A stretch of 55,341 bases of DNA from positions 1 to 55,341 of the IMG/VR virus record IMGVR_UViG_3300032213_001903; one strand, written 5' to 3'. Below the pieces are notes generated by a model. That model saw nothing but the letters and a program-made list of their open reading frames with translations. It was not told the DNA's origin and searched no databases. The stretch's first letter is position 1. Every line of letters starts with the position of its first letter. The stretch is from a virus. Its lineage: Duplodnaviria > Caudoviricetes. A program made the position numbers and the translations under genes. Below are positions 3,263 through 39,496 of this stretch, piece by piece.

Positions 3263-4162
3263 ATGAAGTATTGTATTTTTCATGTGCAGGGTGGAATAGG
3301 CAAACATGTTGCCTCAACTGCTGTTGCTCAAGTAATTAAAAATAATAACCCAGATAGAAAATTAATTATAGTTTGTGCTTATCCAGAAATATTCAACAAT
3401 TTAGACTTTGTTGACAGAGTTTATCAATTGGGCAACACTAGTTACTTTTATCAAAATTATGTCCATGAAAAAGACTCGTTGATTTTTCATCACGAACCAT
3501 ACTATACTACAGATCATATACATAAAAAATTACCACTAATTCAAAACTGGTCTAAGCTATATAATTTAGAATATAAAGGTGAAATGCCCGTAGTTAAATT
3601 TAATAAATTACAGTATGATATTTCTAAAAAGTTTTGGGTTAAAGGAAATAAGCCAATAATGGTATTGCATACTAACGGTGGCATGATGACTACCGATGCT
3701 AAACCCTATGCATGGACTAGAGATATGCCAGAAAATGTAGGGCAAGCACTAGTAGATCATTATAAAAAAGATTATACAATTTATCAAGTTACTAAACTAA
3801 ATTCACCTAAACTAAAAGGTGCTAATCATATTTTTGCAACACAGCAACAATCATTGACAACCATGGAATTGTTTAGTGTATTGTTACATAGTGAAAAAAG
3901 AATTTTAATTGATTCTTGCTTGCAACATACAGCAGCCGCAATGAATAGACCTGCTACAGTATTGTGGAATGGTACTAGTCCTAAAGTATTTGGTTACGAT
4001 ATGCATACAAATATTACCACTAAAATACCATATGAATTTAAGTTGCCTGGAAGCTATTTATTTGATTTTGACTTCAATGGTAACGAAATCGAATATCCAT
4101 TCGAAGAAGAACAAGAGTTATTCAATGTTAATGAAATCATACAATCAGTGGATTCACAATAA
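3263..4162 (+). CDS. GT-B (family 9-like) glycosyltransferase
   Basis: GGIGK start, IDSCLQH.AAA..PATVLW..T.P..FGY motif. Confidence 0.65.
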   Translation: MKYCIFHVQGGIGKHVASTAVAQVIKNNNPDRKLIIVCAYPEIFNNLDFVDRVYQLGNTSYFYQNYVHEKDSLIFHHEPYYTTDHIHKKLPLIQNWSKLYNLEYKGEMPVVKFNKLQYDISKKFWVKGNKPIMVLHTNGGMMTTDAKPYAWTRDMPENVGQALVDHYKKDYTIYQVTKLNSPKLKGANHIFATQQQSLTTMELFSVLLHSEKRILIDSCLQHTAAAMNRPATVLWNGTSPKVFGYDMHTNITTKIPYEFKLPGSYLFDFDFNGNEIEYPFEEEQELFNVNEIIQSVDSQ

Positions 4163-4171
4163 GGAACAAAA

Positions 4172-5110
4172 ATGACACAATCAAAGAAAAAATATTATTT
4201 TATGGCTGGGCTTCCACGAAGCGGAAGTACAATGTTATCTGCTATATTAAATCAAAATCCAAGATTTTATTGTGGTCCAAGCTCTCCTGTAGTACCTACA
4301 ATGTTAACAATAGAAAACTCATTAAAACAAGATGAACTATTTTTGGCATATCCTAAGTATGATTTTGGTAAAAATTTAATTGCATCTGTTATTGACCAGT
4401 ACTATTATGATATCGAAAAGCCTGTAATTTTTGAAAAAAATCGCAGTTGGGTTCATAGAATGAATTATATTCAAGGATATTTTGAAATTGAGCATCCAAA
4501 AATACTTTATCCTGTGCGTGATGTTGCTGAAATTTTAGCATCATTTATTTCTATGATTAATAGAAATCCTGTTATTGTTAATGAAAGATTAAATTTTATC
4601 GATCAATCATTAGTGCAACAAGGAATTCCTATAAATGATGAAAACAGATGCAGAGCTATTGCGGGTCCGGGTATTCTTGGACAATCGTTTGATGGGTTGA
4701 AAAAAGCATTAGCTGAAGGCTATCGTGCAAACATACATTTTGTAGAATATAAAGATTTAGTAAATAAACCTAAAGAAACAATGAAAAAGATTTACGAGTT
4801 CTTAAAAGAACCTGAGTATAATCATGATTTTAAAAATCTAGTAAATGTTCACAGAGAAGATGATGCTAGTATTTATGGGTTCACTGACATGCATGAAGTG
4901 CGTTCTGAAGTAAAATCAACCGCACTTCCACCAGAAGAGGTGTTACATAAAAACATCTTAGATATGTGTAAAGATTCTGAATTTTGGAGACAAATTGATG
5001 ATGTACCGTTGACAGATGAAACAGTAGACACTATTTCAAAAGTTAAACCCAAAGAAAGCTTTTTTGGACATACTGTAGACGAAGATAGTGATGATGTTAG
5101 ATTGATTTAA
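4172..5110 (+). CDS. Sulfotransferase family protein
   Basis: GLPRSGSTML PAPS-binding loop, VRD..EILAS, VEYKDL. Confidence 0.85.
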   Translation: MTQSKKKYYFMAGLPRSGSTMLSAILNQNPRFYCGPSSPVVPTMLTIENSLKQDELFLAYPKYDFGKNLIASVIDQYYYDIEKPVIFEKNRSWVHRMNYIQGYFEIEHPKILYPVRDVAEILASFISMINRNPVIVNERLNFIDQSLVQQGIPINDENRCRAIAGPGILGQSFDGLKKALAEGYRANIHFVEYKDLVNKPKETMKKIYEFLKEPEYNHDFKNLVNVHREDDASIYGFTDMHEVRSEVKSTALPPEEVLHKNILDMCKDSEFWRQIDDVPLTDETVDTISKVKPKESFFGHTVDEDSDDVRLI

Positions 5111-26814: not shown

Positions 26815-26867
26815 AGGATCGGTTCAGCAATTAAAAAAACTTTATATGAAAAAATTAAAAGCGTCCT
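26815..26867 (+). ncRNA. CAGCAA-clamp RNA #1 (short, degenerate; overlaps 5' end of the tRNA-Arg-like gene)
   Basis: AGGATCG-GTT-CAGCAA ... CG-TCCT. Confidence 0.5.
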
Positions 26868-26940
26868 TATACCCTCTGGCTACGAACCAGTTGAAAGGTT
26901 AGTTGGATACATGGAGGTTCGAATCCTCCAGGGCGCGCCA
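26861..26940 (+). tRNA. Atypical 'rewired' tRNA-Arg(ACG)
   Basis: Acceptor GCGTCCT/AGGGCGC+GCCA, normal T-arm, CTGG-CTACGAA-CCAG arm, D-loop-like AGTTGGATA located after the anticodon arm. Confidence 0.7.
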
Positions 26941-28223: not shown

Positions 28224-28297
28224 GCCCCTTTAGTTAAAAAGTATAACACTGTGCTGATAACGCAGAGTCGGAGGAGCGTTACCTCCCGGGGGTACCA
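28224..28297 (+). tRNA. tRNA-Ile(GAT)
   Basis: Loop CTGATAA; atypical T-loop AGCGTTA. Confidence 0.85.
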
Positions 28298-31391: not shown

Positions 31392-31517
31392 AGACTGTTT
31401 CTAAGTGTGCTGTAGTATAGTGGGAAGTACGCAAGGGCCCTCACGATTCATATCGTACGGTGGGAATCGCCAGTGAAACGATGGTTCGACTCCATCTAGT
31501 ACACTTAAAAACAGTTT
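31392..31517 (+). ncRNA. tRNA-like RNA with extended stalk and no CCA
   Basis: D-arm GTAT-AGTGGGAA-GTAC, T-arm GATGG-TTCGACT-CCATC, AGACTGTTT.TAAGTGTGCTG/TAGTACACTTA.AAACAGTTT stalk. Confidence 0.65.
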
Positions 31518-32376: not shown

Positions 32377-32464
32377 GGGTGTTGCCCCCGTCGGCGGTCT
32401 GTAAAACCGTTACCTAAAGAGATGGGAAGTCAGGTTCGTGGAGCGTTACCATCAACACCCACCA
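32377..32464 (+). tRNA. Atypical 'rewired' tRNA-Tyr(GTA)
   Basis: GGGTGTTG/CAACACCC+ACCA, GCGGT-CTGTAAA-ACCGT arm directly after CCCC, then GGGA and D-loop-like AGTCAGGTT before the T-arm. Confidence 0.7.
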
Positions 32465-32471
32465 AGTTTAT

Positions 32472-32548
32472 GCACCGTTAGATCAGTTGGTTAGATCGCA
32501 TGCCTGTCACGCATGAGGCCAGGGGTTCAAGTCCCCTACGGTGCGCCA
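32472..32548 (+). tRNA. tRNA-Asp(GTC)
   Basis: Canonical, loop CTGTCAC. Confidence 0.95.
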
Positions 32549-36182: not shown

Positions 36183-36258
36183 TGCGGCGTAGAGAAATGG
36201 CATCTCATCGGTCTCATAAGCCGAAGGTAGTTGGTTCGATTCCAACCGTTCGCAACCA
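36183..36258 (+). tRNA. tRNA-Met(CAT), initiator-like
   Basis: TGCGG../..CGCA-ACCA, GAG/CTC D-stem, loop CTCATAA. Confidence 0.85.
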
Positions 36259-37989: not shown

Positions 37990-38046
37990 AGGATGCATTC
38001 AGCAATCTTTAATACTTTTCATAATAGTAAAAAAGCGCATCCTGTT
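37990..38046 (+). ncRNA. CAGCAA-clamp RNA #8 carrying a CAU anticodon-like hairpin, in the 5' leader of the DUF2828-like gene
   Basis: AGGATGC-ATT-CAGCAA ... TACT-T-TTCATAA-T-AGTA ... GCATCCT-GTT. Confidence 0.8.
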
Positions 38047-38074
38047 GCATAACACACATAGAAAGGAGAGTACT

Positions 38075-39496
38075 ATGCAATTCGCCGAAGCAGTAATGAA
38101 CCAAGAAGTCCGTACTACTAATGGTATGAAGGCTCGCAAGTCAACAGCAAACGCCTGTGTTGATTTGTTTTATAACATCGGTGCAAGCCGAGGTAAAAAC
38201 ATCATCCCAGCATTTACTGCGGCATATGTAGAAAACTCTGATCTAGCATTGCGTATCGCCCAATGGGCGCGTGATGCGCGTGGGGGTTCAGGTGAACGAG
38301 AATTGTTCCGACAAATCTTGTCTTACTTGGAAGTAGCTAATCCAACAGACGCTAGCCGTCTATTGGCTAAGGTTCCTGAATTGGGACGCTACGATGACTT
38401 GTTTGTTTTTAAGACTAAGAATCTTAAAACACAGGCATACACTATGTTGGGCGATGCATTGCGTAACCGTAATGGATTGGCTGCAAAGTGGACCCCACGA
38501 AAGGGCGATGTTGCACGAGAAATTCGTGAATTCTTTGGTATGACTCCAAAGCAATATCGTAAGAGCCTTGTTGCATTGACCAATGTCGTTGAAACACAAA
38601 TGTGTGCCAACGATTGGGACAATATCAACTATAGTCATGTACCATCCGTGGCACATGCACGATACAAGAAGGCTTTTGGTCGTCATGGTACAACTTATGC
38701 AGAGTATGTAACCAAGTTGGTTAAGGGTGAAGCTGGTGTTAAAATTAACGCTGGTGCAGTATTCCCTTACGATGTATTGAAGGGTGCTATCAACAAGTAC
38801 AGCCGTAGTTCAATGACTAAGACTGAGTTGGATGCATTGCAAGCTCAATGGGACGCATTGCCGAACTTCATTGGTGATAGTAATGTTTTACCAATGGTTG
38901 ACAGTTCAGGTTCTATGACTTGTGCCGCAGGTGGACCTTCTTCAAAGAGTGGTTTGACTTGTTTGGATGTTGCAATCTCATTGGGATTGTATTTTGCAGA
39001 CAAGAACACTGGTAAGTTCAAGGATACTTTCTTGACTTTCAGTCGCACTCCTAAGTTGGTTAACCTTAAGGGTAATATCAATCAAAAGATTGATCAAATG
39101 AACACTGGTGAAGTTGCTAACACCGACTTGAACAAGGCGTTTGATTTGATCCTTAAGACTGCTGTAGATAACAGTGTGCCTCAAGCAGAAATGCCTGAAA
39201 CTCTTGTGATCTTCAGTGACATGCAGTTTGATCAAGGTGTTGACCATGATGACAGTGCTATCGAAATGATTGCACGAAAGTACAAGCTTGCAGGTTACGA
39301 ACTTCCAAAGGTCGTATTCTGGAACTTGAACGCCGCATACGGCAACAGTCCAGTTAAGTTTAACAAGGCAGGTGTTGCGCTAGTCTCAGGATTTAGCCCA
39401 GCAGTTGCACAAGGTATGCTTAGTGGTAACATGGATGACTTCACCCCAGAAGCAATCATGCTGAAGACCGTTATGAAGGATCGTTATTCAGTTTAA
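38075..39496 (+). CDS. DUF2828-like TROVE/vWA protein (Ro60/Rsr-related RNA-binding protein)
   Basis: T.NG..A, WARDARGGSGER, GRYDD, AAKWTPRKG, VETQMCAN.W..INYS.VPS; vWA MIDAS DSSGS..NTD..SDMQFD; VVFWNL, LVSGFSP; AAAGGAG RBS. Confidence 0.85.
   Translation: MQFAEAVMNQEVRTTNGMKARKSTANACVDLFYNIGASRGKNIIPAFTAAYVENSDLALRIAQWARDARGGSGERELFRQILSYLEVANPTDASRLLAKVPELGRYDDLFVFKTKNLKTQAYTMLGDALRNRNGLAAKWTPRKGDVAREIREFFGMTPKQYRKSLVALTNVVETQMCANDWDNINYSHVPSVAHARYKKAFGRHGTTYAEYVTKLVKGEAGVKINAGAVFPYDVLKGAINKYSRSSMTKTELDALQAQWDALPNFIGDSNVLPMVDSSGSMTCAAGGPSSKSGLTCLDVAISLGLYFADKNTGKFKDTFLTFSRTPKLVNLKGNINQKIDQMNTGEVANTDLNKAFDLILKTAVDNSVPQAEMPETLVIFSDMQFDQGVDHDDSAIEMIARKYKLAGYELPKVVFWNLNAAYGNSPVKFNKAGVALVSGFSPAVAQGMLSGNMDDFTPEAIMLKTVMKDRYSV

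What the first reader, a model, noticed from the sequence alone, without database searches (positions are those of the whole stretch)
32377..32464. Second 'rewired' tRNA, Tyr(GTA), with the same swapped architecture
Seen: acceptor GGGTGTTG/CAACACCC (8 bp) with a 4-bp T-stem, then CCCC, the anticodon arm (loop CTGTAAA), a linker, GGGA (pairs with CCC) and a D-loop-like AGTCAGGTT just before the T-arm. It is the only Tyr-anticodon gene in an otherwise complete 20-amino-acid set. A second independent case of the same layout argues for a real structural class over decay.
Basis: partly seen in the sequence, partly recalled or inferred. Interest (0 to 1): 0.85.

Follow-up and report, generated by a model that had tools for sequence, protein, structure and literature searches.

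The report
Pseudoknotted, strand-swapped tyrosine tRNA of phages
This 88-base gene looks like a working tyrosine tRNA whose core is wired differently from the universal cloverleaf, and it belongs to a large family that standard tRNA finders miss in phages, including the cultured phage crAss001.

Summary
The element at 32377-32464 is real and is not decay. ARAGORN and Rfam's tRNA model both miss it. Pattern scans and a covariance model found more than 100 homologues in viral contigs and in bacterial tRNA arrays.

Compensatory changes support these helices:
- an 8-bp acceptor stem;
- a 4-bp T stem;
- a normal anticodon arm carrying GTA;
- helix X/X' (nt 11-16 with 45-50), 100% paired, with changes on both sides in 5 of 6 pairs;
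- helix Y/Y' (nt 36-39 with 56-59), 99.4% paired, with changes in 4 of 4 pairs.

X/X' and Y/Y' cross, so the core is a pseudoknot. The D-stem equivalent forms between the 5' segment and the loop of the long variable arm. The short loop after X' changes together with the T loop: AAGT goes with AGCGTTA, and TGG goes with TTCGAWT. It therefore acts as the D loop.

In a relative rated 100% complete, 26 ordinary tRNAs cover 19 amino acids and only Tyr is missing. No phage TyrRS was found.

A 7/5 version lies unannotated in Bacteroides phage crAss001. I found no published description. Expression and charging are untested.

The parts
32377..32384 (+). Acceptor stem, 5' strand (GGGTGTTG), 8 nt
   Evidence: Pairs with 32453-32460. 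98.5% of cells paired and 5 of 8 pairs changed on both sides in 42 distinct sequences. The 8th pair is G-C in 41 of 42.
32385..32386 (+). Linker l1 (CC) between the acceptor and X
   Evidence: CC in 41, AT in 19, TT in 5 and TC in 2 of 67 distinct family sequences.
32387..32392 (+). X (CCCGTC): 5' strand of the D-stem-equivalent helix, running straight into the anticodon arm
   Evidence: Pairs with 32421-32426. 100% of 252 cells paired and 5 of 6 pairs changed on both sides. 26 distinct X sequences, 6/6 paired in 62 of 67.
32393..32411 (+). Anticodon arm: G (position-26-like), 5-bp stem GCGGT/ACCGT, loop CTGTAAA (anticodon GTA at 32401-32403), T (position-44-like)
   Evidence: Stem pairs change together, U-A 25 and A-U 17 at the loop-closing pair. 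The 26/44-like pair is G.U in 26, A-U in 1 and non-standard in 15, mostly A.C.
32412..32415 (+). Y (ACCT): 5' strand of the variable-arm stem
   Evidence: Pairs with 32432-32435. 99.4% of cells paired and 4 of 4 pairs changed on both sides. 100% paired in the structure-blind alignment A2.
32416..32420 (+). L2 (AAAGA): variable linker from Y to X'
   Evidence: Length 4-10 nt and sequence not conserved across the family.
32421..32426 (+). X' (GATGGG): 3' strand of the D-stem-equivalent helix, lying inside the variable-arm loop
   Evidence: It crosses Y/Y', which makes a pseudoknot.
32427..32431 (+). L3 (AAGTC): D-loop analogue
   Evidence: AAGT follows X' in all 24 distinct rewired sequences of scan 1, which did not specify it. 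It changes with the T loop: TGG-containing L3 in all 53 fitted members with T loop TTCGAWT. The same AAG/AGCGTTA link holds in cloverleaf tRNAs of these arrays.
32432..32435 (+). Y' (AGGT): 3' strand of the variable-arm stem
32436..32437 (+). Link (TC) to the T stem
   Evidence: 2-3 nt across the window's AGCGTTA subfamily; 2-4 nt in the fitted TTCGAWT members.
32438..32452 (+). T arm: 4-bp stem GTGG/CCAT with 7-nt loop AGCGTTA
   Evidence: Stem 100% paired; G.U is replaced by C-G in 1 sequence and G-C in 2. The loop sequence was fixed by my search patterns. The same loop occurs in the window's tRNA-Ile(GAT) at 28224-28297.
32453..32460 (+). Acceptor stem, 3' strand (CAACACCC)
32461..32464 (+). 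Discriminator A plus encoded CCA
   Evidence: Discriminator A in 67 of 67 and ACCA in 63 of 67 distinct sequences. The next tRNA (Asp) starts 7 nt downstream at 32472.

Best explanation
It is a functional tyrosine tRNA (anticodon GUA) with a non-cloverleaf, pseudoknotted core.

Shown by sequence comparison:
- An 8-bp acceptor stem stacked on a 4-bp T stem, giving the usual 12-bp acceptor branch.
- A standard anticodon arm.
- No D hairpin. Only 8 nt separate the acceptor from the anticodon arm.
- Six of those nt (X) pair with six nt (X') that lie inside the loop of the long variable arm. The stem of that arm (Y/Y') starts right after position 44, as in bacterial class II tRNAs.
- The loop after X' (AAGT) changes together with the T loop.

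Inferred:
- X/X' stacks on the anticodon stem and stands in for the D stem, with its two strands in swapped order along the chain.
- The G of AAGT pairs with the C of the AGCGUUA T loop to form the elbow, so the molecule still folds into an L shape.
- It is transcribed within the tRNA array and trimmed like its neighbours.
- The host TyrRS charges it through A73, G34/U35 and the variable-arm stem.
- EF-Tu carries it, and it reads UAU and UAC.

Why phages keep this form is unknown. Escape from host nucleases that destroy tRNA-Tyr is one guess.
For: 1. Family. Model R1 gave 84 hits of at least 62 bits, one in the window (114.6 bits) and one in each of 83 of 88 viral loci. The next best hit was 29.8 bits. 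A further 27 loci came from bacterial genome contigs.

2. Helices (42 distinct sequences).
- X/X': 6 pairs, 5 changed on both sides, 100% paired.
- Acceptor: 98.5% paired.
- T stem: 100% paired.
- Y/Y': 4 of 4 pairs changed on both sides, 99.4% paired.
- In the structure-blind gapless alignment A2, 100% of cells paired, against 34-57% when partners are slid.
- 0 of 500 shuffles reached the observed covariation score on any of the three alignments, or any of the five measures on A4 and A5.
- Across 67 distinct sequences there are 26 different X sequences. X/X' is 6/6 paired in 62 and 5/6 in 5. Y/Y' has at least 3 bp in 67 of 67.

3. Elbow.
- T loop AGCGTTA goes with AAGT after X' in all 24 distinct rewired sequences of scan 1, which left that loop free.
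- T loop TTCGAWT goes with a TGG-containing loop in all 53 fitted members.
- L181 and L223 share the window's Y/Y' and T stem but carry TGGTCA with TTCGATT.
- Cloverleaf tRNAs of the same arrays follow the same rule. 39 of 44 with AGCGTTA lack GG in the D loop, while 748 of 757 with TTCRANT have it.

4. Role as the Tyr tRNA.
- The window has 19 amino acids without it.
- Relative G159 (169,497 bp, CheckV 100%) has 26 ARAGORN tRNAs for 19 amino acids and lacks only Tyr.
- Arrays L003, L004 and L021 (25-27 tRNAs) also lack only Tyr.
- A canonical Tyr tRNA was found in 2 of the 49 scan-1 loci in which ARAGORN found tRNAs.
- Discriminator A in 67 of 67, G1-C72 in 65 of 67 and encoded CCA in 63 of 67.
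- Spacing to neighbouring tRNAs is like theirs.
- No TyrRS/TrpRS family member (PF00579) in 5 phage records, 3 of them rated 100% complete.

5. A layout descriptor over 1.04 Mb found 91 GTA hits plus 1 other, and 0 in reversed sequence.
Against: - There are no expression, processing or charging data. No RNA run was on record as holding the stretch.
- Standard finders reject it.
- Single-sequence folding is unremarkable (z = -1.44; z = -0.95 for crAss001).
- The constancy of the GTA loop, of GAAGT in scans 2 and 3, and of the T loop was imposed by my search patterns. It is not evidence of selection.
- Alignments A4 and A5 were fitted to the structures they test.
- The five Verrucomicrobiota genomes tested all hold a canonical tRNA-Tyr elsewhere, and 2 phage loci hold both forms. 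The rewired copy is therefore not always needed.
- In some members only 3-4 nt join X' to Y'. That may be too short for the G to reach the T loop. The 3D model is inference only.
- A long arm plus an 8/4 branch could also attract SerRS or LeuRS.
Confidence: 0.75

Rival explanations
1. A tRNA-like decoy or regulator that is not used in translation. For example, a sponge for a host nuclease that attacks tRNA-Tyr, or a TyrRS-binding RNA that keeps only the anticodon arm and acceptor end of a tRNA.
For: - Phages are reported to counter tRNA-Tyr-degrading defence with their own tRNA-Tyr (PMC11555353, abstract read).
- The Verrucomicrobiota genomes and 2 phage loci also carry a canonical tRNA-Tyr.
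- RtcB, an RNA repair ligase, lies in the chromosomal array of G001.
Against: - A decoy does not explain why full arrays and a complete phage genome lack only Tyr.
- A decoy would not need the 12-bp acceptor branch, A73, the encoded CCA and a co-varying elbow.
Confidence: 0.12
2. A tRNA that reads Tyr codons but is charged with another amino acid. SerRS charges known 8/4 long-arm tRNAs, and LeuRS uses A73.
For: - The 8/4 branch and the long extra arm resemble the 8/4 tRNAs of Mukai et al. (PMC5389517, abstract and passages read).
- From my own knowledge, not from a call: SerRS and LeuRS ignore the anticodon.
Against: - Discriminator A in 67 of 67. By recalled identity rules this fits TyrRS and not SerRS.
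- The arrays already hold Ser and Leu tRNAs and lack only Tyr.
- Nothing seen here suggests recoding of Tyr codons.
Confidence: 0.05
3. A decayed or scrambled tRNA pseudogene, or a precursor that is cut and rejoined into a normal cloverleaf.
For: - Standard finders reject it.
- The window's other odd element (26861-26940) does look like a one-off rearrangement of a canonical tRNA-Arg.
- HNH endonuclease genes sit in the array.
Against: - More than 100 homologues carry compensatory changes in five helices, which a pseudogene would not keep.
- Turning it into a cloverleaf would need three cuts and three ligations.
- The acceptor ends already lie at the termini, so it is not a permuted gene.
Confidence: 0.03

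Closest known systems
Bacterial class II tRNA-Tyr (canonical cloverleaf with a long variable arm)
   Same: Anticodon loop CUGUAAA, discriminator A73, G1-C72, a helix starting right after position 44 and ending 2-3 nt before the T stem, and an encoded CCA. Canonical-D-arm relatives sharing the same anticodon arm and T arm exist in L032, L036, L046 and L050.
   Different: There is no D hairpin. The variable-arm loop supplies one strand of the D-stem equivalent, which makes a pseudoknot. The acceptor branch is 8/4 and not 7/5. The T loop is AGCGUUA. RF00005 and ARAGORN do not detect it.
8/4 and 9/3 tRNAs (allo-tRNAs; phage 8/4 tRNA-Ser and tRNA-His) of Mukai et al., NAR 2017, PMC5389517 (abstract and passages read)
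   Same: A 12-bp acceptor branch split 8/4 (9/3 in some relatives), a long extra arm, and occurrence in phage tRNA clusters.
   Different: The passages I read describe cloverleaves and mention no Tyr species and no pseudoknot. Their supplements were not available to me. The His and Ser tRNAs of this window are ordinary 7/5.
tRNA-Sec (Rfam RF01852)
   Same: 8-bp acceptor, a 6-bp D-stem-like helix and a long extra arm (the features of tRNA-Sec are recalled, not from a call).
   Different: No Rfam hit to this element. The anticodon is GUA. The T stem is 4 bp. The D helix is not a hairpin.
D-armless and armless mitochondrial tRNAs (review PMC7609411, passages read)
   Same: They lack a D hairpin yet act in translation.
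   Different: Those tRNAs are truncated. Here the D stem is rebuilt from a distant strand and the RNA is longer than normal. ARAGORN's mitochondrial mode does not find it.
Pseudoknotted tRNA-like structures of plant RNA viruses, e.g. the tyrosine-accepting BMV TLS (PMC11791061, search listing only)
   Same: A pseudoknot inside a tRNA mimic that accepts tyrosine.
   Different: Those are 3' UTR elements of RNA viruses, with the pseudoknot in the acceptor arm (recalled) and no decoding role. This is a free-standing gene in a DNA phage tRNA array with a normal acceptor stem.
Permuted and split tRNA genes of algae and archaea (PMC3218864, search listing only)
   Same: The gene order of tRNA segments differs from the cloverleaf order.
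   Different: From my own knowledge, those are processed into canonical tRNAs through bulge-helix-bulge splicing. Here both acceptor strands are at the ends and the rearrangement would persist in the mature RNA.

Membership tests
Canonical tRNA (Rfam RF00005 / cloverleaf) | Detected by the family model or by standard tRNA finders | tested here: not met
   No RF00005 hit at E up to 10 over 32377-32464. ARAGORN misses it in default, relaxed and mitochondrial modes. The crAss001 homologue is missed too.
Canonical tRNA (Rfam RF00005 / cloverleaf) | D-arm hairpin between the acceptor and the anticodon arm | tested here: not met
   Only 8 nt lie there. Six of them pair with nt 45-50, downstream of the anticodon arm.
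Canonical tRNA (Rfam RF00005 / cloverleaf) | 12-bp acceptor/T branch, 5-bp anticodon stem with 7-nt loop (U33, purine 37), discriminator plus CCA end | tested here: met
   8+4 bp, anticodon arm and ACCA are present and supported by covariation.
Canonical tRNA (Rfam RF00005 / cloverleaf) | D-loop/T-loop elbow contact | tested here: inconclusive
   The loop after X' changes with the T loop, which fits such a contact. No 3D model or probing was possible.
Bacterial tRNA-Tyr (identity set recalled: A73, G34/U35, long variable arm) | Anticodon GUA and discriminator A73 | tested here: met
   GTA at 32401-32403. A73 in 67 of 67. Across the family, GTA was imposed by the search patterns.
Bacterial tRNA-Tyr (identity set recalled: A73, G34/U35, long variable arm) | Long variable arm as a free stem-loop | tested here: not met
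   The stem Y/Y' is present, but its loop is tied up in helix X/X'.
Bacterial tRNA-Tyr (identity set recalled: A73, G34/U35, long variable arm) | Aminoacylation by TyrRS | not testable with these tools
   Needs a charging assay. No phage TyrRS was found in 5 records, so a host enzyme would be required.
8/4 allo-tRNA group (PMC5389517) | 8/4 or 9/3 acceptor branch | tested here: met
   The 8th acceptor pair is G-C in 41 of 42 and the T stem has 4 bp. My layout-fitting script assigned 9/3 or 8/3 splits to many fitted relatives.
8/4 allo-tRNA group (PMC5389517) | Cloverleaf with a D hairpin, and serine identity | tested here: not met
   No D hairpin. The discriminator is A and the arrays lack only Tyr. 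Serine charging itself was not tested.
tRNA-Sec (RF01852) | Match to the family model, anticodon UCA | tested here: not met
   No RF01852 hit here at E up to 10. The anticodon is GTA.
Permuted tRNA gene | 3' half encoded upstream of the 5' half, so the acceptor strands are not at the gene ends | tested here: not met
   The acceptor strands are the first 8 nt and nt 77-84, followed by ACCA.

The most novel reading that the evidence does not exclude
Phages of several bacterial phyla, and some bacterial tRNA arrays, use a translationally active tRNA-Tyr with a non-cloverleaf topology. The strands of the D stem are swapped in order, one of them lies in the variable-arm loop, and the core is a pseudoknot. 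If so, the L shape needed by synthetase, EF-Tu and ribosome can be built from a different wiring. The form may persist because it escapes host enzymes that recognise the canonical tRNA-Tyr core.
Probability: 0.65. Interest if true: 0.93.

Novelty: new variant of a known kind. Interest (0 to 1): 0.88.

Why it matters
- **Textbook rule.** The cloverleaf is treated as universal outside mitochondria. [quoted passage not shown] A widespread, selected, pseudoknotted tRNA would be a natural exception.
- **Annotation gap.** Phage tRNA sets that appear to lack Tyr may not lack it. crAss001's copy sits in an unannotated 170-nt gap.
- **Engineering.** It offers a natural scaffold for building orthogonal tRNAs.
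- **Testability.** crAss001 and its host are in culture, so the idea can be tested directly.
- **Defence.** It may bear on the arms race over tRNA-targeting defence systems (PMC11555353, abstract).

Tried and rejected
- **GenBank phage collection.** No match near the window. Only 3 short chance-level matches to the element. No match to subfamily-ii member L154.
- **RNA evidence.** No RNA holder was listed for window:31000-34000.
- **Earlier findings of this scan.** Nothing returned.
- **MAFFT alignment A1** misaligned X' and Y. I replaced it with a gapless subset A2 and two model-fitted alignments, A4 and A5.
- **Loose GTA-loop pattern on complete phage records.** It hit as often as its control and was useless. 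I replaced it with ARAGORN on the whole of G159.
- **Model R1 on 151 genomes of G001's phylum.** Only G001 itself matched. Only 29 candidates per genome were scored, so this is a weak negative.
- **A shared B12/radical-SAM neighbour** in the window and in G001 as a linked modification enzyme. Rejected: the two proteins share only the domain family.
- **Homologues of the L100 Arg(TCT)-like rewired element.** 2 viral hits, neither of the same kind.
- **GAAGT combined with a canonical T loop.** 11 loci, of which only L147 was rewired. This led to the broader scan.
- **Literature.** Nine searches found no description of this topology or of the AGCGUUA T loop. Those of PMC5389517 might show phage tRNA clusters that bear on priority.

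Full report
**Setting.** The window is a whole IMG/VR virus record of 55,341 bp, rated 16% complete, so it is a fragment of a large phage. It carries a + strand tRNA array from about 26.7 to 36.7 kb. ARAGORN finds 32 tRNAs by default and 35 when relaxed. Rfam adds matches at 28224-28294 and 36184-36254, which are among the tRNAs that relaxed ARAGORN adds, and at 31406-31504. HNH endonuclease genes sit between the tRNAs. One of them ends 2 nt upstream of the element.

**Observation.** The 88 nt at 32377-32464 read:

GGGTGTTG-CC-CCCGTC-G-GCGGT-CTGTAAA-ACCGT-T-ACCT-AAAGA-GATGGG-AAGTC-AGGT-TC-GTGG-AGCGTTA-CCAT-CAACACCC-ACCA

- ARAGORN misses it in default, relaxed and mitochondrial modes. Rfam RF00005 and RF01852 give no hit at E up to 10.
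- The minimum-energy fold pairs nt 11-16 with 45-50 around the anticodon arm. Its z-score is only -1.44, so one sequence alone proves little.
- No other GTA tRNA exists in the window. The other 19 amino acids are covered.

**A large family.**
- A pattern built only from the anticodon arm and the T arm found 50 viral loci. Of these, 46 have the same layout and 4 (L032, L036, L046, L050) have a normal D arm.
- A second pattern that excluded the first set found 38 more loci, 37 of the same kind.
- A covariance model built from 14 gapless sequences scored 84 places at 62 bits or more, one per source, over 837 kb. The next best score was 29.8 bits.
- A genome-contig scan found 27 more loci.

**Helices.** The counts below come from 42 distinct sequences.
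- X/X' (nt 11-16 with 45-50) is paired in 100% of cells. Five of its 6 pairs change on both sides, with up to 5 pair types per position.
- The acceptor is 98.5% paired, and the 8th pair is G-C in 41 of 42.
- The T stem is 100% paired.
- Y/Y' (nt 36-39 with 56-59) is 99.4% paired, and all 4 pairs change on both sides.
- In the structure-blind alignment A2, with the pseudoknot written in, 100% of cells pair. Only 34-57% pair when partners are slid by 1-3 columns.
- No shuffle out of 500 reached the observed covariation score on any of the three alignments. On A4 and A5 none reached any of the five measures. On A2, two of the five measures were reached by some shuffles (10 and 221 of 500).
- My own segment parse of 67 distinct sequences (110 loci) found 26 different X strands. 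X/X' was 6/6 paired in 62 and 5/6 in 5. Y/Y' had at least 3 contiguous pairs in 67 of 67.
- Because 11 < 36 < 50 < 59, the two helices cross. The core is an H-type pseudoknot.
- Nucleotides 17 and 35 behave like the canonical 26/44 pair: G.U in 26, A-U in 1 and non-standard in 15, mostly A.C.

**Topology.** A class II tRNA has five helices: acceptor, D, anticodon, variable and T. This RNA has the same five, joined differently: acceptor 5' - linker - X - 26 - anticodon arm - 44 - Y - L2 - X' - L3 - Y' - link - T arm - acceptor 3'.
- X runs without a break into the anticodon stem. It therefore takes the place and polarity of the 3' strand of a D stem.
- X' sits in the variable-arm loop. It takes the place of the 5' strand and is followed by L3, where a D loop would begin.
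- Y starts right after position 44 and Y' ends 2-3 nt before the T stem, as in bacterial long-arm tRNAs.
- The stacking and the L shape are inference.
- A tandem duplication followed by loss could swap the two blocks. That is speculation.

**Elbow covariation.** L3 is AAGT in all 24 distinct rewired sequences of scan 1, which did not specify it. A scan that required a canonical T loop at the longer spacing of the rewired layout returned 108 viral stretches. Of these, 80 were held as loci, giving 72 distinct sequences.
- Of the 69 with enough flank, 53 fit a strict all-paired layout. Only 60 of 1380 fit when the middle was shuffled, and 2 of 1380 when the 5' part was shuffled.
- All 53 have a TGG-containing L3, and none has AAGT.
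- L181 and L223 share the window's ACCT/AGGT and GTGG/CCAT helices but carry TGGTCA with TTCGATT.
- Ordinary cloverleaf tRNAs in these arrays obey the same rule. Of 44 with T loop AGCGTTA, 39 lack GG in the D loop and 40 have AAG there. Of 757 with TTCRANT, 748 have GG.
- L3 therefore behaves as the D-loop partner of the T loop.
- Subfamilies differ in the acceptor branch (8/4, 9/3, 8/3 with a mismatch, or 7/5). Nearly all 7/5 members (6 of 7) have a 5-bp X/X'.

**Function.**
- In G159, a relative rated 100% complete (169,497 bp), ARAGORN finds 26 tRNAs for 19 amino acids and lacks only Tyr.
- Arrays L003, L004 and L021 (25-27 tRNAs) also lack only Tyr.
- Only 2 of the 49 scan-1 loci in which ARAGORN found tRNAs also hold a canonical Tyr tRNA.
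- The discriminator is A in 67 of 67, G1-C72 occurs in 65 of 67, and CCA is encoded in 63 of 67.
- No TyrRS/TrpRS-family gene was found in 5 phage records, 3 of them rated complete. The same search found the family in all 14 control genomes. A host TyrRS would therefore have to charge it, which is inference.
- The layout descriptor found 91 GTA hits, one TCT hit, and none in reversed sequence. The relaxed version found 105 GTA, one TCT and one AT-rich TGT hit. The loci were chosen for holding GTA members. The informative point is that almost no other isotype among about 1,600 array tRNAs is rewired.

**Distribution.**
- Most of the genome-contig hits are Verrucomicrobiota MAGs, including a 5.9-Mb chromosome. 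The element always lies inside a dense tRNA array.
- Five of 5 such genomes also have a canonical tRNA-Tyr elsewhere.
- The G001 array is flanked and interrupted by host-like genes, including RtcB. It is not obviously a prophage.
- A 7/5 member matches 31 GenBank phage records, among them Bacteroides phage crAss001, at 75-76% identity. No feature is annotated under the match in any of the 25 listed rows.
- In NC_049977.1 the element lies at about 4141-4237, in a 170-nt gap between tRNA-Lys and tRNA-Phe. The 23 tRNAs annotated in the stretch shown cover 18 amino acids, without Tyr or Cys. Rfam misses it there too.

The likely candidate is 26861-26940, which has an Arg ACG loop. A 3-bp X/X' is followed by a GG-containing, D-loop-like run and a canonical T arm.
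- Four related arrays carry a canonical tRNA-Arg(ACG) whose T arm and 3' acceptor match it.
- A viral scan for its layout found nothing.
- It fits the same strand-swap idea but is a single, unvalidated case. It cannot support the class. The Tyr family stands on its own evidence.

**Comparison and novelty.**
- The nearest known relatives by shape are the 8/4 and 9/3 tRNAs of Mukai et al. (PMC5389517). The passages I read report 8/4 Ser and His tRNAs in phage clusters, and mention neither Tyr nor a pseudoknot.
- A review of non-canonical tRNAs does not mention phages (PMC7609411).
- Nine literature searches found no description. Supplements were closed.
- I file it as a new variant of a known kind: a tRNA with an undescribed core topology.

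**Caveats.**
- There are no expression or charging data.
- The 3D arrangement is inferred.
- Several invariant motifs were fixed by my search patterns.
- A4 and A5 are fitted alignments.
- In members with only 3-4 nt between X' and Y', the proposed elbow contact may be strained.

**Verdict.**
- It is almost certainly a real, selected, structured RNA (about 0.95).
- It most likely works as the phage's tRNA-Tyr (about 0.75).

Noticed in passing
window 26861-26940: Arg(ACG)-like element. It has a canonical 7/5 acceptor and T arm, but a D-stem 3'-like strand (TACC) lies before the anticodon arm, and GGTT plus a GG-containing D-loop-like run lies after it. Related arrays carry a canonical tRNA-Arg(ACG) instead. 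A viral scan for this layout found 0 hits.
   Followed up: partly
window 28224-28297 (tRNA-Ile GAT) and 44 of 1233 distinct array tRNAs in the loci: An alternative elbow module in otherwise normal cloverleaves. T loop AGCGTTA goes with a GG-less D loop of the form AAAAGYA, mostly in Ile-GAT (16), Ala-TGC (12) and Ile-TAT (4). I found no description of it.
   Followed up: partly
L100, about 4889-4971 (- strand): A single Arg(TCT)-like element in a Verrucomicrobiales MAG array. It has the same rewired layout (8/4, 6-bp X/X', GGC/GCC Y/Y', T loop TGCAACT) and ARAGORN misses it. No homologues were found.
   Followed up: partly
window 31406-31504: Rfam tRNA match of 34.1 bits spanning 99 nt, so a tRNA-like gene with a long insertion. 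Default and relaxed (-ps) ARAGORN do not report it, and the loci held no homologue.
   Followed up: no
L258 (NC_049977.1) 4132-4301: The tRNA array of cultured phage crAss001 has an unannotated 170-nt gap holding a 7/5 rewired GTA element. The annotated tRNAs in this stretch lack Tyr and Cys.
   Followed up: yes
L138/L139 (G001:C1:340001-380000); L093, L107, L115: Verrucomicrobiota chromosomes carry long, phage-like tRNA arrays interspersed with host-like genes, including RtcB RNA ligase. Three genome-contig loci also hold a TTA-anticodon (ochre suppressor-like) tRNA.
   Followed up: partly
L142 and L146 (viral contigs): A GTA tRNA-like gene with a normal D arm but a stretch of about 40 nt between the anticodon arm and a canonical T arm. 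This may be a different kind of expanded tRNA-Tyr.
   Followed up: no
window 38045-39496, and weak Rfam YrlA matches in the array: An ORF with DUF2828/DUF7788 domains lies next to the array. Several sub-threshold Y-RNA-like (YrlA) matches (18-27.5 bits, gathering score 69) fall among the tRNAs.
   Followed up: no
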